Shown: piece by piece, positions 3,994 to 37,482 of the stretch
How the letters are laid out: every line of letters starts with the position of its first letter
Numbering within the stretch: position 1 is the stretch's first letter
From: Candidatus Pacebacteria bacterium CG_4_9_14_0_2_um_filter_40_15
GTDB taxonomy: Bacteria; Patescibacteriota; Microgenomatia; UBA1400; PJMF01
Assembly (NCBI GenBank): GCA_002788675.1
Contig: PFRS01000005.1
Location: 199,767-263,766 of the forward strand
Length of the DNA: 64,000 nt
Direction of reading: 5' to 3'
Notes under the pieces: model-generated
The model's database searches: none
What the model was told of the DNA's origin: nothing
Seen by the model: the letters and a program-made list of their open reading frames with translations, nothing else
Program-made: the position numbers and the translations under genes

Positions 3994-5097
3994 TTATTTA
4001 ATAACAATATTTTCAGTCATAGTCAGAAAGTCTTGTAGAAACTCAGGTGCTAGTATTGAATCATCAGCCGTGAGAGTTTTAAGGGTAAACACTATTGCTT
4101 TTTTATTAGTGATGACGTAAGCAATTGCTTCTGATTTATCAGGATTTTCATACACTTTTACTTGGTATGCTTTATTGTTATCGTAATATTTTGTTGATTG
4201 TTGTGAGTATTGGTTAAGATCTATTTTCGGTAAGTCTTCAGTTCTCATCTCTTGCCAAGTAATTATCCCATCTTGATACGATAAGTTGTTATCTTGATAG
4301 TTAAAGTTCCAATTCTTTGGAATATCTAACGCGATCCAGTTAAGTTGAAGTGGATTGGCGAACTTGAAAAATGCATCCTCAAAATTTCGTTGTGTTGTGT
4401 TTTCAGGACAATTTAATATATTTGTATAATATGGACATGTAAGTATCTTTTCAGTTCCATCTAGGTCATCCACAACTCTTGCAGTATACGAGTCTTGGTT
4501 CCAAGTTACATCAGAAAATTTCATTAACCCACTTATTTTTTCTTTTTCAATGTTAATAAATTCAAGTAAACCATTTCCTTGATTAGAATTATAATGTGCA
4601 ACCAATAAATGTTCTTCTGTCTGAGGTTGTAAAATTAATGGATAGATACGACTTTCACCATCACCTTGGTAAAATAACTCCGATGTTTTTTTTGTTGCAC
4701 GATTGTATGTATATGTTGTAAGAACTTCATTCTCTCGTAAAGTATAGATAATGTATTTACTCCCTATTGCTGCAGCTTTTAGAGGACTATATGTTTCATT
4801 TGGATATTCTTTGTAAGTGCCAATTACAATTTCATTTGTTATTGGTGAAGTTGGTGTGCTTGAAATTACGCTTGGAGCTATAGTTGACATTTGACTGAGT
4901 GGAGGTACGTGTATCCATGCACATCCACCTTCCCAGCAAATACGTTCTTCTCCTGACTGAAACGTGACAAATGTTAATTTTTTATTTCTTAAGAAAGAAA
5001 AATATAGAAGAGTAGTACTTAATGAAATAGCAATTAAAGCGAACCCAAATAATTTTAGCAAGAAGAGTTTACGCTTCATTGATTTTTTTTGTTTCAT
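3994..5097 (-). CDS. Hypothetical secreted/membrane-anchored protein
   Basis: The ORF is open to 5187, but the first 30 codons are antisense to a repeat element. The likely start is M31 (MKQKKSMKRKLFLLKLFGFALIAISL, a signal/anchor). The large extracytoplasmic domain has no recognisable motifs. Confidence 0.5.
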   Translation of the reverse strand: MKQKKSMKRKLFLLKLFGFALIAISLSTTLLYFSFLRNKKLTFVTFQSGEERICWEGGCAWIHVPPLSQMSTIAPSVISSTPTSPITNEIVIGTYKEYPNETYSPLKAAAIGSKYIIYTLRENEVLTTYTYNRATKKTSELFYQGDGESRIYPLILQPQTEEHLLVAHYNSNQGNGLLEFINIEKEKISGLMKFSDVTWNQDSYTARVVDDLDGTEKILTCPYYTNILNCPENTTQRNFEDAFFKFANPLQLNWIALDIPKNWNFNYQDNNLSYQDGIITWQEMRTEDLPKIDLNQYSQQSTKYYDNNKAYQVKVYENPDKSEAIAYVITNKKAIVFTLKTLTADDSILAPEFLQDFLTMTENIVIK

Positions 5098-5185
5098 TGT
5101 ATTTAGTTTAACACTAATCTTTTTGATTTGTCGGGTGTTTGGGACGATGTTGGAACTAATTTGAAAAGAAGCTATACTTACATAC

Positions 5186-5404
5186 ATGAAAAGTAAAAAG
5201 CCAACCTCACTGTTAAAAATATTCTTATTGTTGCTTTGTTTATTCTTCTTAGTTTTTTTTATTTTTATCTTTATGCTTTATCTTGGTTATGAACCGTTCT
5301 ACAGATGCTGGGCTGTTGCAAGACCAATATATGATGGAATGACAAACCCTCCAGCAAGATGTGAATTTTATTTTGGTATTAACGGCTCTTCATTTTTTCA
5401 ATAA
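5186..5404 (+). CDS. Small hydrophobic protein (72 aa), possible; flanked by 21-nt direct repeats
   Basis: ORF with a strongly hydrophobic N-terminal half. A TATACT -10-like hexamer lies ~15 nt upstream. There is no clear SD. It is flanked by near-identical repeats at 5137-5157 and 5421-5441. Confidence 0.3.
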   Translation: MKSKKPTSLLKIFLLLLCLFFLVFFIFIFMLYLGYEPFYRCWAVARPIYDGMTNPPARCEFYFGINGSSFFQ

Positions 5405-5583: not shown

Positions 5584-6492
5584 ATGACAAGTATAGATCA
5601 AAGAGATGGTAGAAATAGGGGCATGTTAGACGCATATGATTTGCCAGAAAAAGTAGCAGCTGGCAATAAAATTTCTCAACCTGAGCTTGCTGCCACAAAA
5701 TATCAACCACAAATTTTAAAGCTTGCTGAAATGGCTTTGTCAATTTCAGATTCAAAGGGTGAGCATTATATTAGTGAGGCAGGAAATAGTCGTTATGGAT
5801 TGCAAGAAATATTTGTTGTAGAGCAAACAACAGATGGGGAAAAGATCGTATTAATCGAAGGCAAACGAGTTCAAAAATCCTTCCCTACTTGGGAACTGAC
5901 AGATAGAGATCTTGTTAAATTAGGGAATTTTTTGGGATATGTTCCAGTAACCGTTTTTTTTGCCAATTGGGAACCTGGTCTCTATAATGATCGAGATTTT
6001 GTTTGGGAGTTTAGTCAAAAAGAAGCAGATGTAAAAAGAAGGCTATCTTATATTGAAGTCTTAGTCAGAGCTGTTGGGGCAACTGTTCATCCCCAAGATT
6101 TTGATCAAGCAGTATGGGCACTAACTGCCCAACCAGACAAAAGGCAGTACTTACCTGAAGATTTACTTGAATCATACACTGAAGTTTTATTGAGCAAAAT
6201 AGGATCTGATAAGGAAGATACTCATAAATTAGTAGAGAAAATAAGAGAAAGTGTAAAACGTTTAGCACTTTTTACTAAAAATGAAGAAGAGTTTATTGTT
6301 CAGTTTTATTATGTATACGCAGATCTGAAAAAGGTAGATTTTCAAGATATTGAGCAAATAGTTGATTCACTCAGATATTTCCCATTTGTTGAAACTCTTT
6401 TGAAAAAATTTCAACATCAACCAGATGCAAATTTTAGTGATAATTTGTTAGGGGCATTAAGTAGGTTCTCAATAGAATTTTACGAAAATTAG
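5584..6492 (+). CDS. Hypothetical cytoplasmic protein (302 aa), no recognisable domain
   Basis: Long clean ORF with A-rich SD-poor upstream. It is acidic and has no TM. Confidence 0.55.
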   Translation: MTSIDQRDGRNRGMLDAYDLPEKVAAGNKISQPELAATKYQPQILKLAEMALSISDSKGEHYISEAGNSRYGLQEIFVVEQTTDGEKIVLIEGKRVQKSFPTWELTDRDLVKLGNFLGYVPVTVFFANWEPGLYNDRDFVWEFSQKEADVKRRLSYIEVLVRAVGATVHPQDFDQAVWALTAQPDKRQYLPEDLLESYTEVLLSKIGSDKEDTHKLVEKIRESVKRLALFTKNEEEFIVQFYYVYADLKKVDFQDIEQIVDSLRYFPFVETLLKKFQHQPDANFSDNLLGALSRFSIEFYEN

Positions 6493-17021: not shown

Positions 17022-18728
17022 ATGAAGAAAAAACGAGGATCGCATTCCAAACTTATTTTGGGAATTGTGTTAGTCCTTGTCTGCACCTTTGCTTGGATAC
17101 TTTTTAGTGCTTACTCAGCAAAACAGCTTATTGCTGCACTACGTGCACAAGATAGTGCGGCTGTGGCAAGCCACAGCCGCACCCTCAAACTTTCATCACA
17201 CACTCTTTCCATTCTGTCATTTCACAAACTCCCAACAATAGAAACTATTGATGGCATTTTGAGTATTGCCTCTAAAGCTCAACAAGCCACAGATGCAATC
17301 AAAGCAGTACAACAGTCTGCCAGTACCGAGTCGATTGACCTTACTGAGCTGTTATCGCTTGCTGTTTCTGTAGAAGACGACAGTATTCAAATTGAAAAAA
17401 ACCTACCAAACTGTAAGCTCTGTGCTCGAATTATTCCAGAAAATACTCAGAATGATGTCACGAGAGTTCTGCATACTACGCAACTCGCAGGAAATGTTGC
17501 GTCAAGTTTACAACATGGCACACATCGTTTTCTCATTCTCTTTCAAAATTCTGACGAACTACGAGCAACAGGGGGGTTCACCGGTTCTTATGCGGTCATT
17601 ACACTCATAGATGGTGTGATCCAACCTATTTCAATTGCAGATATTTATGATGCAGACGGTCAGTTTACGGGTGAGATTCCAGCCCCAAGCGGAGTGAAAG
17701 AATACTTAAGTTCAGACAGGGGACTGAGACTACCTGATGCTAACTGGGCCCCTAACTTCCCTACCAGCGCCAAACAAATCTTACAGTTTTTTGCATTAGG
17801 TGATCAAAATACATTTGATGGTGTGGTGGCAATAACAGATAGTTACTTTGAAGACCTATTAACTGTACTTGGACCAATTTGGCTACCTGATTATCAACTT
17901 ACCGTAACACCTGAAAACTTAACCTCGGTCCTAAGAAGTAATCGAGAAGACTTTTTTGCTGGTAGCATTCAGAAAAAACATCTCTTGGGACAGTTTCAGA
18001 ACCAAGTGCTCATAGCTGCTACCGATCCAGATGTTGATCCAACTGCAATACTCGCTTTGACGATCCAAAATATGCAAGCTAAAAATATTCAAGCATACTC
18101 ATCACTGGAACCACTCCAAGAGATTTTTTCAGCATTAGAGATCGATGGAAAAATGTTTACTCAGGAAGCAACCTCTTCGCTTGCCTTTGTTGAGTCCAAT
18201 GTCGGCATAAATAAAGCAAATAAACATATTGCTCGAGCCATTTCTTTGCAGAACTCAGGATCAACACTGACAGCACGTTACTTTATCGAGAACACAAACG
18301 AACCTCCGGGCAAAACACAACTACAAAACTTAGTTGATATGCCAGAAAAAGTCAGAACTGCCAGCGATGAAGCACAGCATCTTGCCTATGTTAACTACCA
18401 GCGTGTGGTATATCCAAGTTCATGGAAAATATCAAACATCGATATTCCAGGATCTGGCACACCCCAGCTACACTCAAACAATCAGTCACTTTCACCTAGT
18501 ATTGAAGTAACAGAAACTGGATTTCTTGTAGTCGTTCCAGAAAAAAACTCAACTATTGTCACCATTACATTTGATACCCGTACACCTCTCACAAACAGTA
18601 CACTTGAACTCTATAAACAGCCAGGAACAGAGCCTGTCCCTGTATGGATTGAACCACTCGGGACGACCCCCTTCAGCACCAAACCGACTCTGATACTCGA
18701 GAAAAATCATGTTACAATCATGCCATGA
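17022..18728 (+). CDS. Hypothetical protein with N-terminal TM anchor and large extracytoplasmic domain
   Basis: 568 aa with a single N-terminal helix. It resembles the anchored secreted proteins common in Patescibacteria. No catalytic motif was recognised. Confidence 0.55.
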
Positions 18729-19819
18729 AGCAAGAAACACGCGACACCATTGCCACGCTCATCGAAAAGTGGAATTCACTAAAACAAAATGTCGATGTCC
18801 TTGCACTTACTCAGCAACATTTAGATATTGAGGCCCAGACTTTTTCTGCTGATTTCTGGAACCGCAGCGATGCCCAAGCTGTGATGCGAGCCGCTTCAGT
18901 ACTTAAAGAACAGATCGAGGCCTACACGATCCTAGATACTCAGGCAGAAGAAATTACTACCTATCAGGACCTTGTCTCTGAAGATCCAGACTCTTACGAA
19001 TCAGTTGCAAAGGATCTTGATCGAGTGCTTGGAATCTTTGAAAAAAACCTTAAAAAGTTTGAACTTGCTCAATATCTTCAGGGTAAATATGATGCCAATG
19101 GCGCCATAGTTTCAATTCATTCTGGCCAAGGTGGCACCGAAGCAATGGACTGGGCAGACATGCTTAGGCGCATGTATCAGCGATACTTTGAAAAAAAAGG
19201 CTGGACTGCTCGCCTCATTTCAGAATCTCGTGGTGATGAAGCAGGTATAAAATCTGCGGAGTTCGAAGTTACTGCCAACTATGCCTATGGCTATCTAAAA
19301 GGTGAACATGGCACCCATCGATTAGTGCGTCAAAGTCCCTTCAATGCGGATAACCTCAGGCAAACCTCTTTTGCTTTGGTTGAAGTCCTCCCCATTGTTG
19401 ACGAAACCGATACTTCAATTGAATTACAAGATAGTGATCTTGAATGGAATTTTACCCGAGCTGGTGGAGCTGGTGGTCAAAATGTAAATAAAGTAAACAC
19501 TGCCGTTGAACTCACACACACACCAACAGGAATTGTAGTGAAATGCAGAGAAGAGCGATCACAAGTTCAAAATAAAGAACGAGCCCTACAAAAACTTCGC
19601 TCACAGCTAGCCTTAATTGAAGAAGAAAAACAACGCGCTGAAATCTCTAAAGAAAAAGGTGTGCATACAAATGCCAGCTGGGGCAGTCAAATTCGCAACT
19701 ATGTTCTCCATCCTTACCACTTAGTTAAAGATACACGCACCAAAGTTGAGACGAGTGATACTACGGCTGTTCTTGACGGTGATATTGACGAATTTATTCA
19801 AGCTGAAATTCAACTGTAA
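18725..19819 (+). CDS. prfB: Peptide chain release factor 2
   Basis: SPF tripeptide ([10 protein letters not shown]) and GGQ motif ([15 protein letters not shown]). It is a full-length single ORF with no +1 frameshift site. The ATGA start overlaps the stop of the upstream gene. Confidence 0.9.
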
Positions 19820-19842
19820 TCTAGTTTATACTTACAAGTACT

Positions 19843-22800
19843 GTGACCGAACGTACTACCGATACCACTGTTCAGACACCTGTTCAACTCTCAGAAACAT
19901 TTGAATCTGCAGAATCTCTTTCGCCGCTTGAATTGTATGAACAAAAACGCTTTGCTGACTTGTTTTCTGTGTTCCCAACACTTCCAGAGGCTGCAAAACA
20001 AACCACATTACAACTACTTGCTCAAAAAGAGACTGTTCGACTGCTTGCCACCTACTTTGACCTCCTTGAACTCGATGCTGCAAATCTGGAATATTTGTTT
20101 GGGAACTGTGTAACTTTTGAAACCTGTACGTATTTTTTTGAAAATCTTACCCAAACCACCTTCACCTATGATGAAATCATTGCAACGCTCTTAAAAGTTA
20201 ATACTCAATTAGTAATTCTTGCTTTTCATAACCCTACTGCATTAAGTGCAAAAACCATTGAACTTCTCTCACAAGAAGGACATGACTACTCACATACTTT
20301 TGATCGCCTCATTGATTCCTGTACTAATGATGGAAAAATCGCAATACTTACACATTGGTTAGCTACGTACGAGTACGATACATTAGAGTCATGTATTGAG
20401 AAAACAGTGCACATTCCTCGCCCCTTAGTTGACAAACTGCAATCAATTCTACCCATAGAAGATTTTTTGTTTCATGTTAGTCGTTACGAAAGTTTTGACC
20501 ATGCGTCAGTTTTTGCAAAACTTTCTAAAGCTAATAAACTCTATGAACTGTATTCGTGTGCTCGCTATTTCCCAGAATGTAGCGAGACATTTTATTCTGA
20601 ACAACTGACTGAACACCCTGAGCATGAGATACTTTTAGTTACAAACTTTTCAAATTTCAGACATGATTCAGTCTTAGCTGATATTGAGCAAAGTATCTCA
20701 GCAAACAATTCTAAACATTTTGATGCAGATCGAAAATTAAGAATTCTATTGAATGATCAAATCCCACCTTTTACTTCTGTTACAGATCAGGAAGAGCTCT
20801 TTACCCTTTTAGCAACCCCAAAAACTGTGAGTAGGTGCCTAGCAATTGCCCTATCTACAAAACATTTTAATCTGATTCCACAAAGTGAACTTTTGGTAAG
20901 AATTGCAGGAATTCAAAATGGATACAGTGCACTCTACGATCATATAACAAATCCTTCATATGAATCAGGTATTCATTCAATACCTAATTCACTCTTTCAG
21001 AAATTGTTACTATTCGGTGGCCAAGACAGCTATACTCTCTTTAACAAAACAATTTTAAGTAAAATCGATAATTGGGATCAAAAAATGACTGCACAATTTT
21101 TTGAAGCTCAAAATCTAACTGAATATATATCTTACAAGATGTACTATTTTACAGAGGTAGAGAGCGATTTCTTTATTCGTAATTTTCCAGAAACTGAATT
21201 AGCTTCTGCAGTATATCGACATATACTTTGGGCAAAAAAAGTCTTCACAAAGGACGAGGTCTTCTTTTATCTAAAAAAACACGAAGATTACTCATTTCAT
21301 CAAATGTTGACCTTTGGAAATGAATCCCTCAAAACGTACATAGGAGAGACTGCAACCGATACAGAGTTGAGAGATGCTTTTGATGTAACCACAAAAGAAG
21401 GAGAACACGCTTTTCTCTACTTCAAAAGTAAGTATGTAGTACAGTCAGAACAACTGACTGTTAGTGATCGCATTGAAATTATTTTGGCAGAAGTTCAAAA
21501 CAAAGGCACCCTGCTTTTTGAAATACTCTATAATCAACCAGATCAACTAACCTATACAGACTTACAAGATGTTCTTAAAGTTTATCCAAACCTGTTTACA
21601 TTCAACCAATTTAGTAGATTTATTCATTGCCTTAAATGGGAAACATTCCCAACATCTTTTTTTCAAAAGGTACTAGCTCAAGCAAGTAGTGATAAAAAAT
21701 TTGAAGAAATCATTAGTTGTTTGCCCTGGATTCTCACCCATCTTTCTCCAGTTGTTCGAGAGTCTTTAACAACTGAAATATCAGAAAGCATTGCTGCATG
21801 CGAGCAAAAAGATATTTTTAATATGGTGGAATACTATCTCTCAATATCACGAATTGATGTGGCAGTTTTTATTGTTTCAGAGTTTGCGAAAATACAAGAG
21901 AGCCAAGATTTTTTTCAGCTACTCAGACTCCAAGTGGGAACTGAAAAAATTTCTAAAATAATGCAAAAGCTACTTGAAGAAGAAAATTTTGAGCAAGCAC
22001 ATATACTGCAAAAAAAGAGTAATATCTTCACTCTTGATGATTCGCATCTTTCACTCCCTTCAGAAACCCCTACTGAAAATTCAAAAGATACACTTTCCAC
22101 AATTAAGCGAGATGTAGAAACTATCGATCTTTTTAAAGATTTTGGCCTCTTTTATGCACATAAGTTTTTAGAGTATGAATTAGCACAATTGCATAACCAA
22201 CTTACTTTTCCAAGAACAATTGATCATAATTTTTTGGTTACTCAGCCACAAGAATACAGCTCAACAATACATAGGGCGAGTCTCGATCATATCGAAAAAT
22301 TTTTGGAAAATCAGGCAGAAGCACATACTCAAAAAGTATTACATACCCTGACACAACAACTTGTTGTAGCAACTGATTTTCATACATTCTCACAAGATAA
22401 CTTGCGCAATACAAAAGATGCCTACCTCATGGTGCCTCAACTACCCCAACTCTTACATACTAAATCTGATCTAGTACTAGCATTACAAAAACACATTAAA
22501 GTCTATGAAAAAATTGACAGAAAAGATTGGATGATGATTGCGATGGCTGCATATAGACTCGTCCTCCCAAATGCAAAAGAAAATGCTTCATTTTTACTTG
22601 ACCTTATTACAGATCTTGAACATGGGTCTGGATTTATTTTTTCTAGAGGGTACTACGAAAAATTCACTCTCAGTGACAACGAATACTCTCATAACCAATA
22701 TCGTGCCTTTCTGAGCTTCAAATCATCATGTACTTCCTTTACTGATTGGATTTCACACCTAAGATCTCACAACTATGTCCCGGAACCCCAACTAAAAGAC

Positions 22801-22869
22801 CTAGAAAGTATTTATAAAGCAATCCAACATCTTAAAACCGCCCCAACGCGCGCAAAAGGCTATGAATAA
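19843..22869 (+). CDS. Large hypothetical cytoplasmic protein (1008 aa), no recognisable domains
   Basis: Uninterrupted 3-kb ORF, aromatic/Leu-rich, with no TM. The only N-terminal start is GTG at 19843, with no SD and TATACT 11 nt upstream. The start is uncertain. Confidence 0.55.
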   Translation: MTERTTDTTVQTPVQLSETFESAESLSPLELYEQKRFADLFSVFPTLPEAAKQTTLQLLAQKETVRLLATYFDLLELDAANLEYLFGNCVTFETCTYFFENLTQTTFTYDEIIATLLKVNTQLVILAFHNPTALSAKTIELLSQEGHDYSHTFDRLIDSCTNDGKIAILTHWLATYEYDTLESCIEKTVHIPRPLVDKLQSILPIEDFLFHVSRYESFDHASVFAKLSKANKLYELYSCARYFPECSETFYSEQLTEHPEHEILLVTNFSNFRHDSVLADIEQSISANNSKHFDADRKLRILLNDQIPPFTSVTDQEELFTLLATPKTVSRCLAIALSTKHFNLIPQSELLVRIAGIQNGYSALYDHITNPSYESGIHSIPNSLFQKLLLFGGQDSYTLFNKTILSKIDNWDQKMTAQFFEAQNLTEYISYKMYYFTEVESDFFIRNFPETELASAVYRHILWAKKVFTKDEVFFYLKKHEDYSFHQMLTFGNESLKTYIGETATDTELRDAFDVTTKEGEHAFLYFKSKYVVQSEQLTVSDRIEIILAEVQNKGTLLFEILYNQPDQLTYTDLQDVLKVYPNLFTFNQFSRFIHCLKWETFPTSFFQKVLAQASSDKKFEEIISCLPWILTHLSPVVRESLTTEISESIAACEQKDIFNMVEYYLSISRIDVAVFIVSEFAKIQESQDFFQLLRLQVGTEKISKIMQKLLEEENFEQAHILQKKSNIFTLDDSHLSLPSETPTENSKDTLSTIKRDVETIDLFKDFGLFYAHKFLEYELAQLHNQLTFPRTIDHNFLVTQPQEYSSTIHRASLDHIEKFLENQAEAHTQKVLHTLTQQLVVATDFHTFSQDNLRNTKDAYLMVPQLPQLLHTKSDLVLALQKHIKVYEKIDRKDWMMIAMAAYRLVLPNAKENASFLLDLITDLEHGSGFIFSRGYYEKFTLSDNEYSHNQYRAFLSFKSSCTSFTDWISHLRSHNYVPEPQLKDLESIYKAIQHLKTAPTRAKGYE

Positions 22870-22929: not shown

Positions 22930-23520
22930 ATGCAAAAACTAAATCTCTCTGGGACCGATACACTCGAGAAAGAAACGTCGGTTGACTCTGCTGTAATTGT
23001 GGCTGATAATAGTGAATCGGAAAGCGATGGCAGTGATTATGCAGTAGAAATACCTTCTCTACGGAAAAAAGAAGCACCCATGAAAAAATCTCAAAAAACA
23101 TTCCTAACTTTTGCCTTTGTAGCAGTTCTCCTTGGTGTTGTAACTGGATTCAGTGGGTATCGTCTTTATGCAAAATCCGGAGCAATGAGTGGCAGCAAAG
23201 AAGATCTTACAATGGTTGTTGATGGCGCAATCAAAAAAGGTGCTACTTTTGGTAGTAATGACGAATCATTTAAAGATACCGCGAAGGGATATCTCGAAAT
23301 TGGAGGATTTGAAGGTGAAGGTTCACATAAACTCCTTCGTCCGGGCGGAGATAACCAAACAGTCTACCTAACCTCTTCAGTCACTGATCTCAGTGAGTTT
23401 GAAGGTATGGAAATTGAAGTTTGGGGTGAAACATTCCAAGGACAATCAGTTGGTTGGCTTATGGATGTAGGTCGAGTAAAAGTACTTGAAACCAAAGCAC
23501 AACCACCTTCAGAAGAGTAA
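22930..23520 (+). CDS. Hypothetical membrane-anchored protein (acidic N-terminus, one TM, extracytoplasmic domain)
   Basis: 196 aa. TATACT ends 7 nt before the ATG, so it is probably leaderless. Confidence 0.5.
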   Translation: MQKLNLSGTDTLEKETSVDSAVIVADNSESESDGSDYAVEIPSLRKKEAPMKKSQKTFLTFAFVAVLLGVVTGFSGYRLYAKSGAMSGSKEDLTMVVDGAIKKGATFGSNDESFKDTAKGYLEIGGFEGEGSHKLLRPGGDNQTVYLTSSVTDLSEFEGMEIEVWGETFQGQSVGWLMDVGRVKVLETKAQPPSEE

Positions 23521-23639: not shown

Positions 23640-24809
23640 ATGATAGTTTTTAATTCTGTATACCGCACCTTCGATCCAGATGACTCTGGTTTAAAGGATA
23701 TTTCATTTACCATTGACCCTGGTGAACTTGTTATGATCACAGGCCACTCTGGTAGTGGAAAAACTACCATCATGCGCCTGCTTACTAAAGAGTACACTCC
23801 AAATAAAGGTGAGATTAGTTTTGATGAACAAAATCTTTCCAAGATTAAAAAAAGCAAACTCCATGAACACAGACGAAAAATTGGCGTCGTCTTCCAGGAT
23901 TATCGCCTAATTCCAGAAATGAATGTCTGGGAAAATATTGCACTGCCTTTAGCCATTACCGGTAAAAAAGATACTGAAATTGCCGAGCGCGTAACAGATT
24001 TACTTAATCTGATTCAACTTCCGGAGAAAGCTCATCTCTTCCCAAGTCAGCTTTCAGGTGGAGAAGCACAACGTATTAGTATCGCTCGAGCACTTGCAAA
24101 TGCTCCTAGAGTTATTTTTGCTGATGAACCAACGGGAAATCTCGATCAAGATACCTCACAATCCATTGCTCATTTACTCAAGCAAATAAATGAATTGGGA
24201 ACAACATTGATATTTGCTACCCATGACCCCAAAGTTCTCTCGATATTTTCTGATAAACGTCATATTAACTTAAAAAATGGCACCGTCGAGTTTGATACCG
24301 GTGAAAAGAAACCAAATTCAGCTAAAAAAGACTCAAAAAATGAAGATAAAGATACTGATAAGAAAGCTTCAGAAAAAGAAGGATCCACTAATAAAAAATC
24401 AGCAAATATCACAAAAAGCTCATCTAAAGAAAGTTCTGTGAAGAGTGAAACTACTACTGGCACTTCAGAACCTGAATCAAAGGATACATCAGAAAAAGAT
24501 ACAAAAGAAGAAAAATCAGAGAAACCAGCAAAAAAATCTGGTGGCTTGTTATCTCGCTGGTTTGGCTCAAAAGAATCAAAAACTGCAACTGAAAAAACTA
24601 ATGCAGATGGAAATGATCTCGATATCGAGATGAGATTAGTCGAGACAGATTCAAAAACTGAAGACACTAAAAATGATGACAAGACATCTGTCACAATGAA
24701 GGATGAGAAAACTTCCAAAAAGATAAATACTGCAAATAAATCTGATATTGATGCAGAAAAATCTTCAAATGATACATCAAAACACAAATCATCCAAGAGC
24801 AAAAAGTAA
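23640..24809 (+). CDS. ftsE: Cell-division ABC ATPase FtsE with ~165-aa low-complexity C-terminal extension
   Basis: Walker A GHSGSGKTT, signature LSGGEAQRISIARAL and Walker B IFADEPTGNLD lie within the first ~220 aa. The remainder is a K/S/E/D/T-rich disordered tail. Confidence 0.85.
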   Translation: MIVFNSVYRTFDPDDSGLKDISFTIDPGELVMITGHSGSGKTTIMRLLTKEYTPNKGEISFDEQNLSKIKKSKLHEHRRKIGVVFQDYRLIPEMNVWENIALPLAITGKKDTEIAERVTDLLNLIQLPEKAHLFPSQLSGGEAQRISIARALANAPRVIFADEPTGNLDQDTSQSIAHLLKQINELGTTLIFATHDPKVLSIFSDKRHINLKNGTVEFDTGEKKPNSAKKDSKNEDKDTDKKASEKEGSTNKKSANITKSSSKESSVKSETTTGTSEPESKDTSEKDTKEEKSEKPAKKSGGLLSRWFGSKESKTATEKTNADGNDLDIEMRLVETDSKTEDTKNDDKTSVTMKDEKTSKKINTANKSDIDAEKSSNDTSKHKSSKSKK

Positions 24810-24812
24810 CCT

Positions 24813-25682
24813 ATGAACTCACTCACCGCCGCCCTCACCACAATCCGCAGATCTCCCTACCAGGCTTTGGTCTCGATTCTTATGGTCAGTGTTACCTTTT
24901 TTGTTGCTTATATCTTTAGTTTTTTCATTGCTGGCGCTAACGAAGTACTGAGTTACTTCGAGACGCAGCCACAAATTATTGCCTTTTTCGAACTTGAAAC
25001 CCCGAGTAGCAGCATTGATTCGCTCAAAAAAAAGATGGAGAGTCAGTGGTATGTCGATTCAGTCAAAATTGTTACCCAAGATGAAGCTCTGAAAATTTAT
25101 CAAGAAGACAATAAAACTGATCCACTCCTTCTGGAGTTAGTCACAGCTGACATTCTGCCAGCTAGTATCGAAGTAGCAGCTAAAGATCTGAATTCCCTTG
25201 TTCTTGTAAAAGATGAACTCGAAAAAGCTCCAGATATTGAAGATGTCGTTTATCAAGAAGATATTGTAAAAACACTTGGTTCTTGGACACAATCTGTCCG
25301 TATGATTGGCGCTGGTGCCATTCTCACGTTAGCAACCATTTCATTCTTAATAATCATGATTGTGGTTGCCATGAAGGCAGCACATAAACGAGGTACCATT
25401 AAAATAATGCGCTATATAGGCGCAACGTCTTGGTATATTAAGCTTCCATTTCTCCTTGAAGGCGTGCTCTATGGCATGATTGGTTCACTTCTTGGTTTTG
25501 GCGCCACTATGGCCGCTCTTATGTATGCTTCCCCTTGGGTTTCTGAATTTTTAGGTGAAGTTCACATATTCCCTATACCGCCCGAATTCTTAGCTGCCCA
25601 AGTAGGAGCTGGCACAGTAGCTGGAATGCTTCTTGGCGGCTTTGCTGGTCTCTTGGCAGTACAAAGATTAATAAAGCAGTAG
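24813..25682 (+). CDS. ftsX: Cell-division permease FtsX
   Basis: 4-TM FtsX topology with a periplasmic loop. It follows ftsE by 3 nt. Confidence 0.8.
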   Translation: MNSLTAALTTIRRSPYQALVSILMVSVTFFVAYIFSFFIAGANEVLSYFETQPQIIAFFELETPSSSIDSLKKKMESQWYVDSVKIVTQDEALKIYQEDNKTDPLLLELVTADILPASIEVAAKDLNSLVLVKDELEKAPDIEDVVYQEDIVKTLGSWTQSVRMIGAGAILTLATISFLIIMIVVAMKAAHKRGTIKIMRYIGATSWYIKLPFLLEGVLYGMIGSLLGFGATMAALMYASPWVSEFLGEVHIFPIPPEFLAAQVGAGTVAGMLLGGFAGLLAVQRLIKQ

Positions 25683-25684
25683 CT

Positions 25685-26971
25685 ATGCGAACTCACTCCA
25701 CTGGCTTTTTCCACACTTGGCCGTCACTTTTGCGGAAGTTTTCTATTGGAATTTTTGCGGCACTCTGTATTTTTTCCACACTGAGTATTACTCCAACTTC
25801 TGTTTCTGCAGAGGCATGTGACGAAAACTGTAACAAAGATGCAGATGATAGCGAATACCTCCAATGTATTTCTCGTAAGAAGGAATGTCTAGAAAAAGAA
25901 CTTTCAGTCATTTCAGATCAAAAGAACACCCTCAACAACACTATTAGCCTGATTAGTGGCAACATTAGAGTTCAAGAGATACAAATTTCTCAGACAACGG
26001 CAGAAATCCGTGCACTCGAAAAAGAAATCACCGAACTCGACCAACGCATCGGTGGCCTCAACATTTCCCTTGATCGCCTCACCTCACTGTTAGTCAATAG
26101 AATTCGCAGCCAATATAAGCGCAATCGCGTCTCACCACTAGCACTCTTTACCAAGGCAGATACTTTCAACTCATTCCTTACACAGTATAAATACATTGGT
26201 CATGCTGGTGAACAAACCGCCAAGGCCATGAGCCTCGCCGAGTCCCAACGACTACTCTATGACGATCAAAAAACACTCAAAGAGGAAAAACAAACCGAGT
26301 TCCAGGCAAAAACTAACCAATTGCAAAGTCAGAAAACCGAACTCGACCGACAAAAATCAGAACAGACCGCTATCTTGGGAGTTACCAAAAATAATGAGGC
26401 AAAGTATCAAGAACTCCTGGCTGAGGCCCAAAAAGAACTCCAACAAATTGCCGACGCTGCCAACGTAGTTATCCGTGAAGGCAATGGAGTGCCCGTTAAA
26501 AAGGGTGAAACCATTGGTACTATGGGAAATTCAGGATTCTCGACCGGAGCCCACCTGCACTTTGGCGTGTATCGTTACAGTGCAGATCAGTTTGGTCAAA
26601 CCTCAAGTTGGGGGTGGTACTATAGTAACTACGTAAATCCAATTGAAAAACTCGGACCTACATCTGTTACTTGGGATACAGGCTGTGGCCATGATCCCAG
26701 TGGCAATCAGACATCAGGAAACGGCAGCTGGCAGTGGCCAATGACATCATCACGCATTACCCAAAACTATGGTTCAAATACCTGTTACAACTGGATGTAC
26801 GGCAATAAGCCACATCCTGCAATCGATATTGTTGGCATGGGTTCTAAATCTGTCACCGCCGTTGAGGATGGCGAAGCCTACTTCTGCAGGAACTGCCTCA
26901 ATGATGGAGGTAATGGTGTTTTCGTTTTTCATAGTGACAACTACATGACTTTGTACTGGCATCTTCAGTAA
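25685..26971 (+). CDS. Peptidase M23 family murein hydrolase/activator (EnvC-like) with coiled coil and Cys-rich C-terminal domain
   Basis: Signal peptide and a long coiled coil. M23 motif GTMGNSGFSTGAHLHFGVY (HxH). There is an extra ~130-aa C-terminal domain with 6 Cys. Confidence 0.8.
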   Translation: MRTHSTGFFHTWPSLLRKFSIGIFAALCIFSTLSITPTSVSAEACDENCNKDADDSEYLQCISRKKECLEKELSVISDQKNTLNNTISLISGNIRVQEIQISQTTAEIRALEKEITELDQRIGGLNISLDRLTSLLVNRIRSQYKRNRVSPLALFTKADTFNSFLTQYKYIGHAGEQTAKAMSLAESQRLLYDDQKTLKEEKQTEFQAKTNQLQSQKTELDRQKSEQTAILGVTKNNEAKYQELLAEAQKELQQIADAANVVIREGNGVPVKKGETIGTMGNSGFSTGAHLHFGVYRYSADQFGQTSSWGWYYSNYVNPIEKLGPTSVTWDTGCGHDPSGNQTSGNGSWQWPMTSSRITQNYGSNTCYNWMYGNKPHPAIDIVGMGSKSVTAVEDGEAYFCRNCLNDGGNGVFVFHSDNYMTLYWHLQ

Positions 26972-27088: not shown

Positions 27089-27169
27089 ATGCAATAGTAA
27101 TAACAGCAGACAAGCTGATTGGAGCCTACAACCACTCCAACTAGTAGATTCTGCACAAAAGGGAAACAT

Positions 27170-27505
27170 ATGAAAGCATTAAAACTCACCTTAGCTGGTG
27201 TTCTTGCTACAGCAACAATGCTCAGCTTCTCAACTGTGGTTTCTGCAGATACAGCTGAACAGTCACAATCTGCTGACCAAAAAGTAACAGTTAAATGTAC
27301 AACTGGTTCTTATGGACAAGACTCAACTTGTGAAGCTTCTGGAGAGCAATCTCTCGAGCAATCACAAAAGATTGTCTATACCAACGTTCTTGGTAAAACC
27401 CATGAGCCTGTTGATACAGCTCTCGACTTTGGTACTGCATCTGCAGCTGCCATGAGTTTAGTAACTGGTGCTGGTGCACTCGTACTTAAACGTAAGATTG
27501 CTTAA
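27170..27505 (+). CDS. Small secreted protein with C-terminal hydrophobic segment + KRK (sorting-signal-like)
   Basis: Signal peptide MKALKLTLAGVLATATMLSFSTVVSA. C-terminus ...GTASAAAMSLVTGAGALVLKRKIA. The start is set at the second Met; the ORF track starts at 27119. Confidence 0.55.
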   Translation: MKALKLTLAGVLATATMLSFSTVVSADTAEQSQSADQKVTVKCTTGSYGQDSTCEASGEQSLEQSQKIVYTNVLGKTHEPVDTALDFGTASAAAMSLVTGAGALVLKRKIA

Positions 27506-28071: not shown

Positions 28072-29223
28072 ATGAAGAAAGTACTATCTTTCATGTTCTT
28101 AGCAGTTTTATTGTCCGCGTGCCGGATCCCCGGCACTGATTTCGTTATTTTCGAAAGCATTGCTGAAGAAAGTAGCGTAATTGTAGTTGTCGAACCCACC
28201 CCAACCCCTAGCCCAACTCCTGTTGTGGCTATTGAAGACGCTGCTTTTCAATGGGTTCCCGGCGTAGATGCTCGTATTGACAATCTGTTCACTGATCCCA
28301 ACCATGCTTATGGTACCGATACCAATGTTGCATGTGGGACCCCCAACAATGCTGATGGGGTTATTATTCCAGGAGATGCTGTGTATTCAGCCGAAGATCT
28401 CCGCTACATGGAAGAAGGTGATCATGATTATCCCAATGATATCTATGTCGATTGCAAAAATTTTATCGGATGGCAACTACGCATTCTTGATCCCGAAATG
28501 CCCAAAAGCGAAACTGCCGAAGCAACTGCAACCCCGGCCGCTGAAGTTGAAAACACCGATCCAATTGGTGAAGAAGTTTTAACCGCTGATGGTACCTGGC
28601 GCGTCAAGCTGTGGCAAGATTTGTCATATGGCCCTGAACTGGGTCACAGCCGTCCTGGCTTCGGAACTTCAATTAATGAGATTGGCATCGCCGTTGGCGT
28701 TGACCTGTCCGTTATCATTGATGGTAAAGAAGTAATGCTCGGTGGTGGATGTAACCAAATCGCCGTTATGCCAGAAAGTTACGCCCGCGACGCGGGTGGG
28801 AACGACTGGGGCTACCGCTCATACCAGTTCAATCCTGAGGTCACGCAGGCCTTGGATGAACTCGTGGTGCTGAACCACGAATGGGCACGTGCGCAGATTA
28901 ACGACGAAGATTGTCCCGAACTGTCCGACGAAGAACTGCTGATTCACACCTTTGTGTTTTGGCAAGATTCTGAAGGCGTAGATCACCTCCAACCATGGCA
29001 AGAGTTCCGTCGGGCAACCGGCGAGGACAATGTCATCATGGTTCACCCGTCTGACGGGGCCATGATCGGTTGGCATTGTGGCGAAGGCGACAGCCAAGAC
29101 AACCTGGCCGACAACGGCCAGTGTTTTGTCGAGGATGTTAACTTCTGGGGTTACCTTGGTGGTGGCGTTGTCCACCCCTGGGAAGGTGAAGTCCCGGCTA
29201 ATACCGTAGACGTCACCAAATAA
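28072..29223 (+). CDS. Lipoprotein of unknown function, markedly GC-rich (putative horizontally acquired)
   Basis: Lipobox LLSAC and SD GGAGG. Codon usage is rich in GCC/GGC/CCC, with local GC visibly ~50-55% against ~38% around it. It has a Pro/Thr linker and an acidic domain. Confidence 0.65.
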   Translation: MKKVLSFMFLAVLLSACRIPGTDFVIFESIAEESSVIVVVEPTPTPSPTPVVAIEDAAFQWVPGVDARIDNLFTDPNHAYGTDTNVACGTPNNADGVIIPGDAVYSAEDLRYMEEGDHDYPNDIYVDCKNFIGWQLRILDPEMPKSETAEATATPAAEVENTDPIGEEVLTADGTWRVKLWQDLSYGPELGHSRPGFGTSINEIGIAVGVDLSVIIDGKEVMLGGGCNQIAVMPESYARDAGGNDWGYRSYQFNPEVTQALDELVVLNHEWARAQINDEDCPELSDEELLIHTFVFWQDSEGVDHLQPWQEFRRATGEDNVIMVHPSDGAMIGWHCGEGDSQDNLADNGQCFVEDVNFWGYLGGGVVHPWEGEVPANTVDVTK

Positions 29224-34149: not shown

Positions 34150-37100
34150 ATGATACAGCGTATTACCCAACACTTTCGACGTTTTTTTACACCTCATATT
34201 ATGCTGTTAGCCTTGTGCTGGCTTGCTATTGTGTTTACGAATTTCAATCCGGGCACTTGGCTCATTGGTTGGGATAATCTCATTCCTGAAGTAAATATTT
34301 TCCTAAACCTGTACAAAACAATCTTTTCTGCTTGGCAAAGTTGGCAAGGTCTGGGTATAGTTGGTGGCATTGCTCATGCTTCAGAACTGAGCCGAGAACT
34401 CATACTTCTCCCCTTTGCACTTATTCTTCCTGGTGAACTCATTAGATACATCTGGACTTTTGCAATGCTGTTAGTTGGAATGCTTGGTACCTACCACTTA
34501 GCACTTTGGCTACTAAAAGAGTCTAAGCATTCAACATGGATAGCCTTAGTAGTAGCTGTAGCCTATACTTTTAATTTAGCAACTATTCAAAACTTTTTTG
34601 TACCATTAGAAGCCTTCTCAACTTTTTGGGGCTTTTTTCCTCTATTTTTATTGACTGCTTTTAAGCTGGTCAAAAATCCTAGCAAAAAAAGTATCTTTTT
34701 CTTTGCGCTGATACAGTTTCTTGGAGCTTCTGCCTTTCACGTCCAAACTATGTTTATCGTGTATTCACTTGTGTTAGGTATTTTCACGCTAGCAAGTCTA
34801 ATCAGCTCTCGTGGACAAAACATTAAGGCACTTTGTGTACTTTGGATAACACTCATTCTTGTGCATTTTTATTGGCTCGCACCAGTTGGCTACTTTACCC
34901 TTACAAATGCACAGCAAACTGTGGATTCGAAACAAAATAGTATTTCCACACAAGAAGTTTTTGAATCTAATAAAGCCGCAGGATCACTTACCAATATACT
35001 CAGACTAAAGGGATATTGGTTTAACTATACAGATAGCAACCCAAATGGGACCCAGTATCTTATGGATGCATGGGAAAAACATACCAACTCACTGCCGGTT
35101 GCTGTGGGAAGTATCTTGATAAGTCTTGTTGGTATTGGGGGATATATTCTCTATCTTAGATCCTTGGATGCAGATACACATGTTCGCACAGAATATATCG
35201 TGTTCTTCCTCACAGCAACACTGCTAGCAATTTCAATGCTCACAACAGGTAAAGGCATAGTTGGGCTAGGCTATACAGTCATTACAAAATTACCGCTCCT
35301 TGGACAAGTCTTTAGAGTTCCATTCACCAAGTGGTCTGTGGTACTTTCACTCTTCATTTCAATTGGAATTGGCTATTTTCTCAGCTATGTTACTGCACAA
35401 AAAAAACTATTGGTTATGGGTGCGACAGCACTCTTTATTGCATTGGCTAGCATTTTTAGCGCAGCGCCTCTCTTTAGTGGCGGACTCTTTTATAGTAACG
35501 TACAACTTTCACTGCCCAGTGCCTATTCTCACTTATTCGAAGAACTCTCAACACAACCAACCACTAATCGGATTCTCTACCTTCCTTTTGATGACTTTTG
35601 GGGATGGATGAATCATGATTGGGGCTACCGAGGAAGTGGTTTTATTTGGTACGGAATAAAGCAACCAATCATTGACAGAAATTTTGATGTGTGGAGTGTA
35701 AGAAATGAGACACTCTACACACAACTTCAACAAACACTCCAAACCAAAAACACAGCCGAGACAGAGATTTTACTTGATAAATATGACATTTCTCTACTTT
35801 TAATCGACACCAGCATACAAGCCAATCAAAAAAGAAAACAAGAAACTGCCGATACTATTCAAGCATTAGAAAAAACTGGGTACATATCTAAAATTTGGGA
35901 AGACGACTTTCTCAGTCTCTATAAAACAACAATTGAATCAGGTGAATTACAGGTAACTCATTCAGAAGGTATCCAACCACTTGAAAAAAGACTCATTACT
36001 GATACTGTGGCATATGCTGGTAGCTACTACTTTGACTCAAATAGTCAGCTGCATCTGCCCCTACAGAATCTACTCACTGAATCAATTTCAAGTCAGCGAA
36101 TGCAAGTTCAAAATGATCAGATTGTAGTACCACTTCTGAACCAAGCATCAAAAATCACCATCCCCTCATTAGAAGGAATGAAACAAATGTATGGTATTCA
36201 GCTGATTGGAAATAAGCTCACTATTGAACCAATCGCACCTCTTCACTTGCTAGATACAAAAACAAATACAACCCGAGACATCTACTCTTTGACAAAAATG
36301 GAGTACACTTTCGATACCTTAGGAAAGAAAATTTATCTAGATATCAACGACACTCTTTTCACATTGAATGAAACTGAGTATCGACAAATTATTCTTCCAG
36401 AAATAATTTCTCAACCAGTTACCATGAAAATATCTAGTGCTGAAGATATTTCCACAGTTGATGAAAATACGTTACAAAGCACTCGATACCAAGAATTACA
36501 TGTCCCCTCAACGCTTTGGCAGGACTTGCTGAGCGAGAAAATACTTGAATCCGGACCAGATGAGCAATTGTTACTAGCAACTCTGAGTGAGCTCTTACCC
36601 TTTGACGCATCAGATACTGTTGCAAATAATTGTGATGCACTTTCTCGGGGAACTACAGCTAAACAAATAACTGACCAACATACCAGTGTGTATACTTCTA
36701 ATGATTTTGGCATCTTCTGTGATGGAAGTTCTACTCAAAAAATGCAAGCAAACCAAGACCATTTCCTAAAGATAACCGCCACTAATACAACTGGCTTGCC
36801 ACTCAGATTTTATATTAAAAATAATGCTACAGAAACTATTTTGCTAGAACAGGTACTCACTGATTCAGCTAACTACTTCTTCGTTCCTCAAGACATTTCT
36901 AACGGTAACCTATCAGTGAATATCCAAAATAAATCCACCGGAACTCTGAGTAAAAATACTCTTATAGACGTCAGTCTCCATGAACTCCCTATTCATTTAG
37001 CACTACTGGGGAAAATTAAAGTCAGTCCAGTCTCTTCAAATGCTGTTGAGACACAGTCAACAGAAGAATCGCCATCAGATCTTTCAGTATCAAAATTTAG

Positions 37101-37482
37101 TACATTCAAAATCGGTAATTTTTTATACTTCATTTCATTCGCATCTCAATCTGAACAAGAAAAAGACGCAACCCTATTGACTGTATCTCAGAGCTATGAC
37201 GCCGGATGGATCGCATTCTCTTATTCAGCATTCCCAACCCCGCTACGACATGTGGAAGTAGATGGTTGGAAAAATGGATGGGAGATTCAAAATGGAAAAA
37301 ATGCACTCTTCATACTCTATTGGCCACAATTAGGTGTCTTTTTGGGATACATTTTGCTATTTATAGTGTTAAAACACGTTTACTTAGGTGTGAAATTAGA
37401 AAAAAGTGAAAATACTCAAAAAAAACGACGGGCACGACAACTGTACCGGGTGCCTAAAAAAATTCTGGGTGGCAAAAAATAA
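34150..37482 (+). CDS. 1110-aa polytopic membrane protein: N-terminal ~13-TM domain + ~650-aa extracytoplasmic domain + C-terminal TM; putative GT-C type (YfhO/ArnT-like) glycosyltransferase
   Basis: The topology is inferred from hydrophobic helices in aa 1-440 and one near the C-terminus. It is adjacent to the GtrB-like gene. Motif-level identity is not established. Confidence 0.4.
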   Translation: MIQRITQHFRRFFTPHIMLLALCWLAIVFTNFNPGTWLIGWDNLIPEVNIFLNLYKTIFSAWQSWQGLGIVGGIAHASELSRELILLPFALILPGELIRYIWTFAMLLVGMLGTYHLALWLLKESKHSTWIALVVAVAYTFNLATIQNFFVPLEAFSTFWGFFPLFLLTAFKLVKNPSKKSIFFFALIQFLGASAFHVQTMFIVYSLVLGIFTLASLISSRGQNIKALCVLWITLILVHFYWLAPVGYFTLTNAQQTVDSKQNSISTQEVFESNKAAGSLTNILRLKGYWFNYTDSNPNGTQYLMDAWEKHTNSLPVAVGSILISLVGIGGYILYLRSLDADTHVRTEYIVFFLTATLLAISMLTTGKGIVGLGYTVITKLPLLGQVFRVPFTKWSVVLSLFISIGIGYFLSYVTAQKKLLVMGATALFIALASIFSAAPLFSGGLFYSNVQLSLPSAYSHLFEELSTQPTTNRILYLPFDDFWGWMNHDWGYRGSGFIWYGIKQPIIDRNFDVWSVRNETLYTQLQQTLQTKNTAETEILLDKYDISLLLIDTSIQANQKRKQETADTIQALEKTGYISKIWEDDFLSLYKTTIESGELQVTHSEGIQPLEKRLITDTVAYAGSYYFDSNSQLHLPLQNLLTESISSQRMQVQNDQIVVPLLNQASKITIPSLEGMKQMYGIQLIGNKLTIEPIAPLHLLDTKTNTTRDIYSLTKMEYTFDTLGKKIYLDINDTLFTLNETEYRQIILPEIISQPVTMKISSAEDISTVDENTLQSTRYQELHVPSTLWQDLLSEKILESGPDEQLLLATLSELLPFDASDTVANNCDALSRGTTAKQITDQHTSVYTSNDFGIFCDGSSTQKMQANQDHFLKITATNTTGLPLRFYIKNNATETILLEQVLTDSANYFFVPQDISNGNLSVNIQNKSTGTLSKNTLIDVSLHELPIHLALLGKIKVSPVSSNAVETQSTEESPSDLSVSKFSTFKIGNFLYFISFASQSEQEKDATLLTVSQSYDAGWIAFSYSAFPTPLRHVEVDGWKNGWEIQNGKNALFILYWPQLGVFLGYILLFIVLKHVYLGVKLEKSENTQKKRRARQLYRVPKKILGGKK

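What the first reader, a model, noticed from the sequence alone, without database searches (positions are those of the whole stretch)
19843..22869. 1008-aa conserved-looking protein of completely unknown function between prfB and ftsE
It is a single uninterrupted 3-kb ORF in a housekeeping neighbourhood (prfB upstream, divisome genes downstream). It has no TM segments, nucleotide-binding motifs or recognisable repeats. It is rich in Phe/Tyr/Leu/Glu and probably all-alpha. The only available start is GTG with no SD. Large domain-less proteins kept in minimal genomes are candidates for lineage-specific essential functions.
Basis: seen in the sequence. Interest (0 to 1): 0.5.

Follow-up and report, generated by a model that had tools for sequence, protein, structure and literature searches.

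The report
Orphan 1008-aa all-helical cytoplasmic protein
This is a real gene for a large, all-helical cytoplasmic protein in a Pacebacteria (Patescibacteria) genome; it matches no known family, has only three distant relatives in public data, and keeps no conserved neighbours, so it is an ordinary narrow-lineage "hypothetical" and not a widely kept essential gene.

The parts
19843..22869 (+). Complete ORF, 1008 aa plus stop, GTG start: an orphan all-alpha protein.
   Evidence: The ORF is virtually identical (99-100%) in the 11-member cluster from Candidatus Pacebacteria MAGs (e.g. PIZ78186.1). Collinear relatives P0012 and P0013 have E about 1e-100.
19820..19842 (+). 23-nt spacer between the prfB stop codon and the GTG. 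It has no SD. It contains a TATACT -10-like hexamer (19827-19832) and 'caagtact' directly before the start.
   Evidence: The related motif AAGTA is enriched upstream of genes in this window (9 of 62, expected 2.7), whereas AGGAG occurs in only 5 of 62.
19843..19905 (+). Residues 1-21: a polar, poorly conserved N-terminal tail predicted to be disordered.
   Evidence: pLDDT is below 50. Three-sequence identity is 0.03. P0013 lacks the first ~70-95 residues and has in-frame stops upstream of its start.
19924..22026 (+). Residues ~28-728: an irregular alpha-solenoid-like array of about 49 short helices (about 10 residues each). It is acidic (pI 4.7-5.6) and weakly conserved.
22057..22113 (+). Residues 739-757: a disordered Ser/Thr/Pro/Glu-rich linker between the solenoid and the C-terminal domain.
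   Evidence: pLDDT is below 50. The region is flagged as polar and low-complexity. It contains indels in the alignment.
22120..22866 (+). Residues 760-1008: the conserved C-terminal helical-bundle domain. It has two long helices, a variable loop (848-872), a six-helix bundle, and a C-terminal 'APTRxKGYE' tail that pairs as a short strand.
22600..22647 (+). Residues 920-935: the invariant motif D-x3-D-L-x-H-x2-G-x2-F-x-R ('DLITDLEHGSGFIFSR'). This is a candidate ligand, metal or partner-binding site.
   Evidence: These are invariant columns in all four lineages, together with Y888 R893 D895 W896 Y948 K960 S961 T1002 G1006. The function is inferred, not shown.
22665..22732 (+). A cluster of 6 SNPs (4 synonymous; N951D and T964A). 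These are the only differences from a second assembly of the same population across 23 kb.
18725..19819 (+). Upstream neighbour prfB (RF2), a single ORF without the +1 frameshift. It overlaps the DUF4012 gene by 4 nt.
22930..23520 (+). Downstream neighbour: a 196-aa bitopic membrane protein with an acidic N-terminus, one TM segment and a C-terminal domain. It has no family assignment.
23640..26971 (+). ftsE (389 aa, with a ~175-aa C-terminal extension), ftsX and an M23 peptidase gene.

Best explanation
This is a genuine, intact, chromosomal protein-coding gene. It is very probably co-transcribed with prfB. It encodes a soluble, acidic, all-alpha cytoplasmic protein that founds a tiny orphan family: four known lineages and no relation to any described family.

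The architecture is an N-terminal irregular alpha-solenoid (~700 aa, fast-evolving), a flexible linker, and a conserved ~250-aa C-terminal helical bundle with an invariant D/D/H/G/F/R cluster and a conserved C-terminal tail.

The most likely way it works is inferred, not shown. I think it is a non-enzymatic scaffold or adaptor. The solenoid would offer a large, adaptable protein-binding surface. The conserved C-terminal bundle would be the constant 'head' that docks onto a conserved partner or ligand. It is an accessory protein of a narrow Pacebacteria-type clade, not a core housekeeping factor.
For: It is a real gene. The ORF has 1008 stop-free codons, a coding-type GC1>GC2>GC3 pattern, and collinear homologues at 28% identity over the full length (E 2.8e-101 and 4e-100).

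It is an orphan. Pfam, NCBIfam and PDB sequence searches returned nothing, and PHROGs and PADLOC only sub-threshold hits (E 0.014-0.13). HMMER found only 4 hits among 1.84 billion representatives.

The architecture comes from two AlphaFold models. The full-length model has pLDDT 69.5 and is all helices. The C-domain model has pLDDT 76 and pTM 0.73.

It shows no P-loop, Rossmann, HExxH or Cys motifs and has 1.8% Gly.

The conservation gradient runs from a variable N-terminus to a conserved C-terminus.

It is cytoplasmic: there is no signal peptide or TM segment.

It is native, not foreign. GC3 is 0.27, within the local range of 0.25-0.43. There is no match in phages, plasmids or viral contigs, and no mobile-element genes flank it.

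The operon reading rests on the 23-nt gap after prfB, the shared strand, and the absence of a terminator-like site in the gap.
Confidence: 0.4

Rival explanations
1. It is a novel enzyme or metal-binding protein. In this reading the C-terminal helical bundle is a new catalytic or metal-binding domain. D920, D924 and H927 lie at i, i+4 and i+7, at the end of one helix and just beyond it. R935, D895, R893, Y948 and K960 would complete a pocket. The solenoid would recruit the substrate.
Confidence: 0.2
2. It is a divisome or envelope-linked adaptor. In this reading the protein works with the downstream membrane protein and FtsEX/M23, for example as a cytoplasmic regulator analogous to EzrA-like helical division regulators. 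This would explain its position in the prfB-ftsEX gene string.
Against: The ftsEX linkage is absent from the two relatives whose same-strand downstream genes can be read. The three downstream membrane proteins are not homologous to each other (they have different Pfam content). The EzrA hit is a generic helical match, and EzrA's defining N-terminal TM anchor is absent. Membrane proteins are common, so 3 of 3 is weak evidence.
Confidence: 0.12
3. This is the first reader's reading: a lineage-specific essential housekeeping factor, retained in a reduced genome because it replaces a missing core function such as translation termination or division.
For: The gene is embedded in a housekeeping string and is probably co-transcribed with prfB. 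It is intact and virtually invariant (99-100% protein identity) in all assemblies of this population. A 3-kb gene is costly in a genome of roughly 1.2 Mb (longest contig 1,189,027 bp).
Against: The gene is found in only four lineages out of about 15 billion proteins and 185,579 species genomes. Synteny is not conserved. The N-terminal two thirds evolve fast. Patescibacteria carry tens of thousands of species- or genus-restricted unknown gene clusters, so such genes are the norm (PMC9132574).
Confidence: 0.1
4. It is a host-interaction or conflict protein, meaning an effector, an immunity protein or a defence component of an episymbiotic bacterium. This would explain the patchy distribution and the fast evolution.
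For: The distribution is very narrow and patchy, and the N-terminus diverges rapidly. The only polymorphisms in 23 kb cluster inside this gene. Several assemblies break inside the gene.
Against: There is no secretion signal and no toxin, nuclease or NTPase domain. PADLOC gives no significant hit. There are no neighbouring defence or mobile genes. GC3 is native. Four of the 6 SNPs are synonymous, so there is no sign of diversifying selection.
Confidence: 0.08
5. It is not a gene: a chance ORF or a decayed pseudogene.
For: There is a GTG start without an SD and no family hit.
Against: Chance is excluded: the probability is about 1e-29, and there are full-length homologues at E 1e-100 with conserved motifs. 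Lack of an SD is typical of this genome.
Confidence: 0.01

Closest known systems
Alpha-solenoid (HEAT/ARM/TPR-like) scaffold proteins, e.g. MMS19, karyopherin Kap114, SKI3, the FANCE C-terminal helical repeats, Enp1
PF05635, the 23S rRNA-intervening-sequence protein / 'S23 ribosomal protein' four-helix-bundle family (PDB 2rld). From my own knowledge, the Avd proteins of diversity-generating retroelements belong to this family.
   Different: The score of 14.8 bits is far below the gathering cut-off of 33.8. The other three members give no hit. Structural identity is 2-3%. The family consists of ~110-aa stand-alone proteins, whereas this is a 1008-aa protein. There is no reverse transcriptase and no DGR nearby. 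The resemblance amounts to 'a four-helix bundle'.
EzrA, a spectrin-like helical division regulator of Firmicutes
   Different: The N-terminal TM anchor is absent. There is no Pfam EzrA hit. The match is a generic helical one. The division-gene linkage is not conserved in relatives.
[quoted passage not shown]
   Same: It is a taxonomically restricted, unannotated gene cluster in a CPR genome. That study counts 54,343 such clusters, most of them at species or genus level.
   Different: At 1008 aa it is unusually long for such a gene. It also has a well-defined conserved domain shared across lineages that are only 28% identical.

Membership tests
HEAT / ARM / TPR / PPR helical-repeat families | Sequence match to a repeat profile (Pfam) above the gathering threshold | tested here: not met
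   The target has no Pfam family at E<=0.01, and the four family members have none of these families at E<=1.
HEAT / ARM / TPR / PPR helical-repeat families | Regular tandem repeat unit of ~34-47 aa | tested here: not met
   Self-BLAST finds nothing. Segment-against-segment hhalign gives a best probability of 32%. Lag autocorrelation gives z<=3 with no lag shared among members.
HEAT / ARM / TPR / PPR helical-repeat families | Alpha-alpha superhelix fold | tested here: inconclusive
PF05635 23S_rRNA_IVP / Avd-like four-helix bundle | Pfam score at or above the 33.8-bit gathering threshold | tested here: not met
   The best score is 14.8 bits (E 0.034), in P0015 only. The window protein gives no hit.
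PF05635 23S_rRNA_IVP / Avd-like four-helix bundle | Four-helix-bundle fold superposable on 2rld | tested here: inconclusive
EzrA-type division regulator | N-terminal membrane anchor plus spectrin-like repeats, with an EzrA Pfam match | tested here: not met
P-loop / ABC / AAA+ NTPases (large bacterial ATPases) | Walker A and Walker B motifs | tested here: not met
   The regex search found none. Gly is 1.8%.
Known anti-phage defence or phage proteins | Match to PADLOC or PHROG models, or to phage or plasmid DNA | tested here: not met
   The best PADLOC hit has E 0.014 and the best PHROG hit E 0.052, neither significant. tblastn against phages and plasmids gives no match.
Core (phylum-wide) Patescibacteria protein family | Presence across many Patescibacteria genomes, with conserved synteny | tested here: not met
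   Four lineages were found in 1.84 billion representatives. One locus was found in 185,579 species genomes, using a motif-dependent scan. The gene neighbourhood differs in every lineage.

The most novel reading that the evidence does not exclude
The conserved ~250-aa C-terminal helical bundle is a previously undescribed functional domain, either catalytic or metal/ligand-binding through the invariant D-x3-D-L-x-H-x2-G-x2-F-x-R cluster. It is tethered to a fast-evolving solenoid that targets it to lineage-specific partners, possibly envelope or division proteins encoded downstream. This would define a new protein family specific to a small clade of episymbiotic Pacebacteria.
Probability: 0.15. 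Interest if true: 0.5.

Novelty: new member of a known kind. Interest (0 to 1): 0.25.

Why it matters
If the C-terminal bundle proved to be a new catalytic or docking domain, it would add one family to the large catalogue of Patescibacteria-specific proteins. It could also hint at how one small clade organises its envelope or division machinery. As it stands, the result is mainly a calibration point. A large, domain-less ORF inside a housekeeping gene string of a reduced genome is not in itself evidence of a conserved or essential function. This one is restricted to four known lineages, and its neighbourhood is not conserved.

Tried and rejected
1. Single-sequence and profile searches of Pfam, NCBIfam, PHROGs, PADLOC and PDB sequences gave nothing significant.

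2. Word-indexed homologue searches with the protein, with the family alignment and with P0013 returned only the query's own clusters.

3. I ran two metagenome-contig scans using motifs from two different regions, one viral-contig scan, and tblastn against phages and plasmids. None found a relative.

5. The internal-repeat hypothesis (ARM- or mTERF-like units of ~30-42 aa) is rejected.

6. A HEPN-type Rx4-6H motif (R811-H816) is not conserved in P0012 and is rejected. Fic-like and terpene-synthase-like readings of the DLEH...R motif do not fit those consensus patterns. That comparison is from memory only and was not tested further.

7. Horizontal acquisition suggested by the low GC (0.356) is rejected. 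GC3 (0.27) is within the local range, and the low GC comes from codon positions 1 and 2, that is, from amino-acid composition.

8. A DGR or hypervariable explanation for the SNP cluster is rejected. The changes are not adenine-specific and 4 of 6 are synonymous.

9. I tested for homology between the downstream membrane proteins of the window and of L002. It was not significant.

10. I tried to verify the taxonomy of the L002 carrier through cluster names. No names were available.

Full report
**1. Observation**

The window holds a single ORF at 19843-22869 on the + strand, 1008 aa, beginning with GTG. The frame opens at a TAG at 19822-19824. No other ATG, GTG or TTG precedes the first conserved block ('SPxELYEQ', residues 27-34), so GTG 19843 is the only usable start. 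The relative P0012 starts 'MSEQ' at the aligned position, which supports this start.

The ORF is far longer than chance allows, about 1e-29 from base composition. It has the same GC1>GC2>GC3 pattern as its neighbours.

Upstream lie a cyclophilin gene, a DUF4012 gene and prfB (18725-19819; TIGR00020, 423 bits; a single frame without the usual +1 frameshift). Downstream lie a 196-aa bitopic membrane-protein ORF (22930-23520), ftsE (TIGR02673, 250.9 bits over residues 1-214, plus a ~175-aa extension), ftsX and an M23 peptidase gene. All are on the + strand.

The compositional claims also hold:
- L 12.2, T 8.6, E 8.0, S 7.8, F 7.2 and Y 4.5%, with Gly only 1.8%.
- pI 5.2, computed on the near-identical cluster representative P0001.
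- No TM segment.
- No Walker, GxGxxG, HExxH or CxxC motifs.
- No repeats by self-BLAST, by TRF on the DNA, by segment-against-segment hhalign or by lag autocorrelation.

The missing Shine-Dalgarno sequence is not a mark against the gene. Only 5 of 62 long ORFs in the window have AGGAG upstream, whereas an AAGTA-type motif is enriched (9 of 62, expected 2.7). The target has 'caagtact' directly before its GTG.

**2. Is it a gene, and how widely is it kept?**

The protein belongs to a 90%-identity cluster of 11 sequences, all 99-100% identical. They come from Candidatus Pacebacteria/Paceibacterota MAGs (e.g. PIZ78186.1, PJA69158.1) and from JGI, ENA and Logan assemblies. Two other assemblies of the locus are 99.96-99.97% identical in DNA, so this cluster is one population.

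An exhaustive HMMER scan of 1.84 billion representative proteins gave only four hits:
- P0012, 990 aa, 28% identity, E 2.8e-101.
- P0013, 925 aa, 28% identity, E 4e-100.
- A fragment of the query's own cluster.
- P0015, 122 aa, E 5e-5. This is the C-terminal end of a longer ORF cut off by a contig end.

The alignment is collinear from end to end. This proves a protein-coding gene under purifying selection.

The same result shows that the family is tiny. A motif scan of one genome from each of 185,579 species found a single locus (L002 = P0012). Two metagenome-contig scans, a viral-contig scan and tblastn against phage and plasmid collections found nothing.

**3. Context in relatives**

- L002 is a 155-kb MAG contig from a wastewater/river data set (PMC9405806). 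Its record title says Pseudomonadales, which I could not verify. The homologue there follows a tRNA-Thr gene and an HD-domain gene. It precedes a bitopic Ig-like membrane protein. Polysaccharide-synthesis genes, signal peptidase, parB, ftsW and ileS lie nearby.
- In L003 the homologue precedes a 4-TM PF04020 protein and a 7TM protein.
- In L004 the homologue faces a convergent unknown gene.

None of the relatives is next to prfB or ftsEX. The only recurring feature is a membrane-protein gene immediately downstream on the same strand (3 of 3). Those proteins are not homologous to each other.

**4. Structure**

AlphaFold2 with the four-sequence alignment gives an all-helical model: mean pLDDT 69.5, pTM 0.34, about 60 helices. 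Disordered segments lie at residues 1-21 and 739-757, among others.

Residues ~28-728 form about 49 short helices of about 10 residues each, arranged like an irregular solenoid.

The C-terminal 253 residues were modelled separately (pLDDT 76, pTM 0.73). They form two long helices, a variable loop, a six-helix bundle, and a small sheet that includes the conserved C-terminal tail.

Conservation rises from near zero at the N-terminus to 33-40% three-way identity in residues 881-960. The residues invariant in all four lineages are Y888, R893, D895, W896, I899, L918, D920, D924, L925, H927, G930, F933, R935, Y948, L957, K960, S961, L997, A1000, T1002 and G1006.

**5. Fold comparison**

- Foldseek against the PDB gave no hit with E<=1e-3. 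The list consists of eukaryotic HEAT/TPR scaffolds at TM about 0.1.

The weak Pfam hit of P0015 to PF05635 (E 0.034, 14.8 bits against a cut-off of 33.8) coincides with the 2rld match. It says no more than 'a four-helix bundle'.

The AFDB library was not available.

**6. Interpretation**

Shown:
- It is a real, intact, native gene. Its GC3 is typical of the locus, and there are no mobile or defence signatures.
- It encodes a soluble, acidic, all-alpha protein of an undescribed family with four known lineages.
- It has a variable N-terminal helical array and a conserved C-terminal bundle.

Inferred:
- It is co-transcribed with prfB, given the 23-nt gap and the absence of a terminator-like site in that gap.
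- It acts as a scaffold or adaptor whose C-terminal bundle binds a conserved partner or ligand.

Rival readings, in decreasing order of likelihood, are a novel enzyme or metal-binding domain, a divisome or envelope adaptor, an essential lineage-specific housekeeping factor, and a host-interaction or conflict protein. None can be excluded. A non-coding artefact is excluded.

**7. Comparison with what is known, and novelty**

The protein fails every family membership test I could run: helical-repeat families, PF05635, EzrA, NTPases, and defence or phage families. It resembles known alpha-solenoid scaffolds only in fold class.

Patescibacteria are known to carry tens of thousands of species- to family-restricted unknown gene clusters (54,343 clusters; PMC9132574). 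A narrow orphan is therefore ordinary for this phylum. This one is notable only for its length and for having a clearly delimited conserved domain. I rate it as a new member of a known kind, namely a lineage-restricted all-helical hypothetical protein, with low to moderate interest.

Noticed in passing
window 22665-22732: The only 6 differences between the window and a second assembly of the same population (L001) over 23 kb all fall within 68 bp of the target's C-terminal domain. Four are synonymous; the other two are N951D and T964A. Two alleles (N951/T964 and D951/A964) recur among the cluster members. This looks like a short recombination or strain-variant patch.
   Followed up: partly
window 18725-19819: prfB (RF2) is a single uninterrupted ORF without the programmed +1 frameshift common in bacteria. 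Its ATG overlaps the stop of the upstream DUF4012 gene by 4 nt.
   Followed up: partly
window 23640-24809: FtsE is 389 aa. The FtsE model (TIGR02673) covers only residues 1-214, leaving a ~175-aa C-terminal extension with no family match.
   Followed up: no
window 22930-23520: This is a 196-aa ORF with no family assignment. It has an acidic N-terminal ~50 aa, one TM helix (about residues 57-79) and a ~115-aa C-terminal domain. A TGgTATACT extended -10-like box lies 8 nt before its ATG, so the mRNA may have a short leader or none.
   Followed up: partly
window 34150-37482: This is a second ORF of more than 1000 aa (1110 aa) with no Pfam hit at 1e-4. Unlike the target, it is a polytopic membrane protein with at least 11 hydrophobic segments.
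   Followed up: partly
window-wide (62 long ORFs): A canonical Shine-Dalgarno sequence is rare (AGGAG upstream of 5 of 62 ORFs). An 'AAGTA(A/C)' motif just upstream of start codons is enriched (9 of 62 against 2.7 expected), for example 'gaaagtaacATG' before the DUF4012, Mur ligase and ftsX genes. It may be a non-SD initiation signal.
   Followed up: partly
window 28072-29223, 5584-6492, 3994-5187 (-), 27119-27505: These are further ORFs of 128-397 aa with no Pfam match at 1e-4. Unannotatable genes are frequent in this window.
   Followed up: no
L002 9836-9909 and record title: In L002 a tRNA-Thr(CGU) gene lies directly upstream of the homologue. The record is titled 'uncultured Pseudomonadales bacterium', but ftsW there sits between ileS and a methyltransferase gene, not in a dcw cluster. 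The taxonomic label may be wrong.
   Followed up: partly
cluster members P0003/P0006, P0005/P0007, P0004, P0009: In several independent assemblies the contig or scaffold breaks inside this gene, at different positions (about residues 254-270, 322-361, 820 and 893). This suggests local assembly difficulty or strain heterogeneity in the gene.
   Followed up: no
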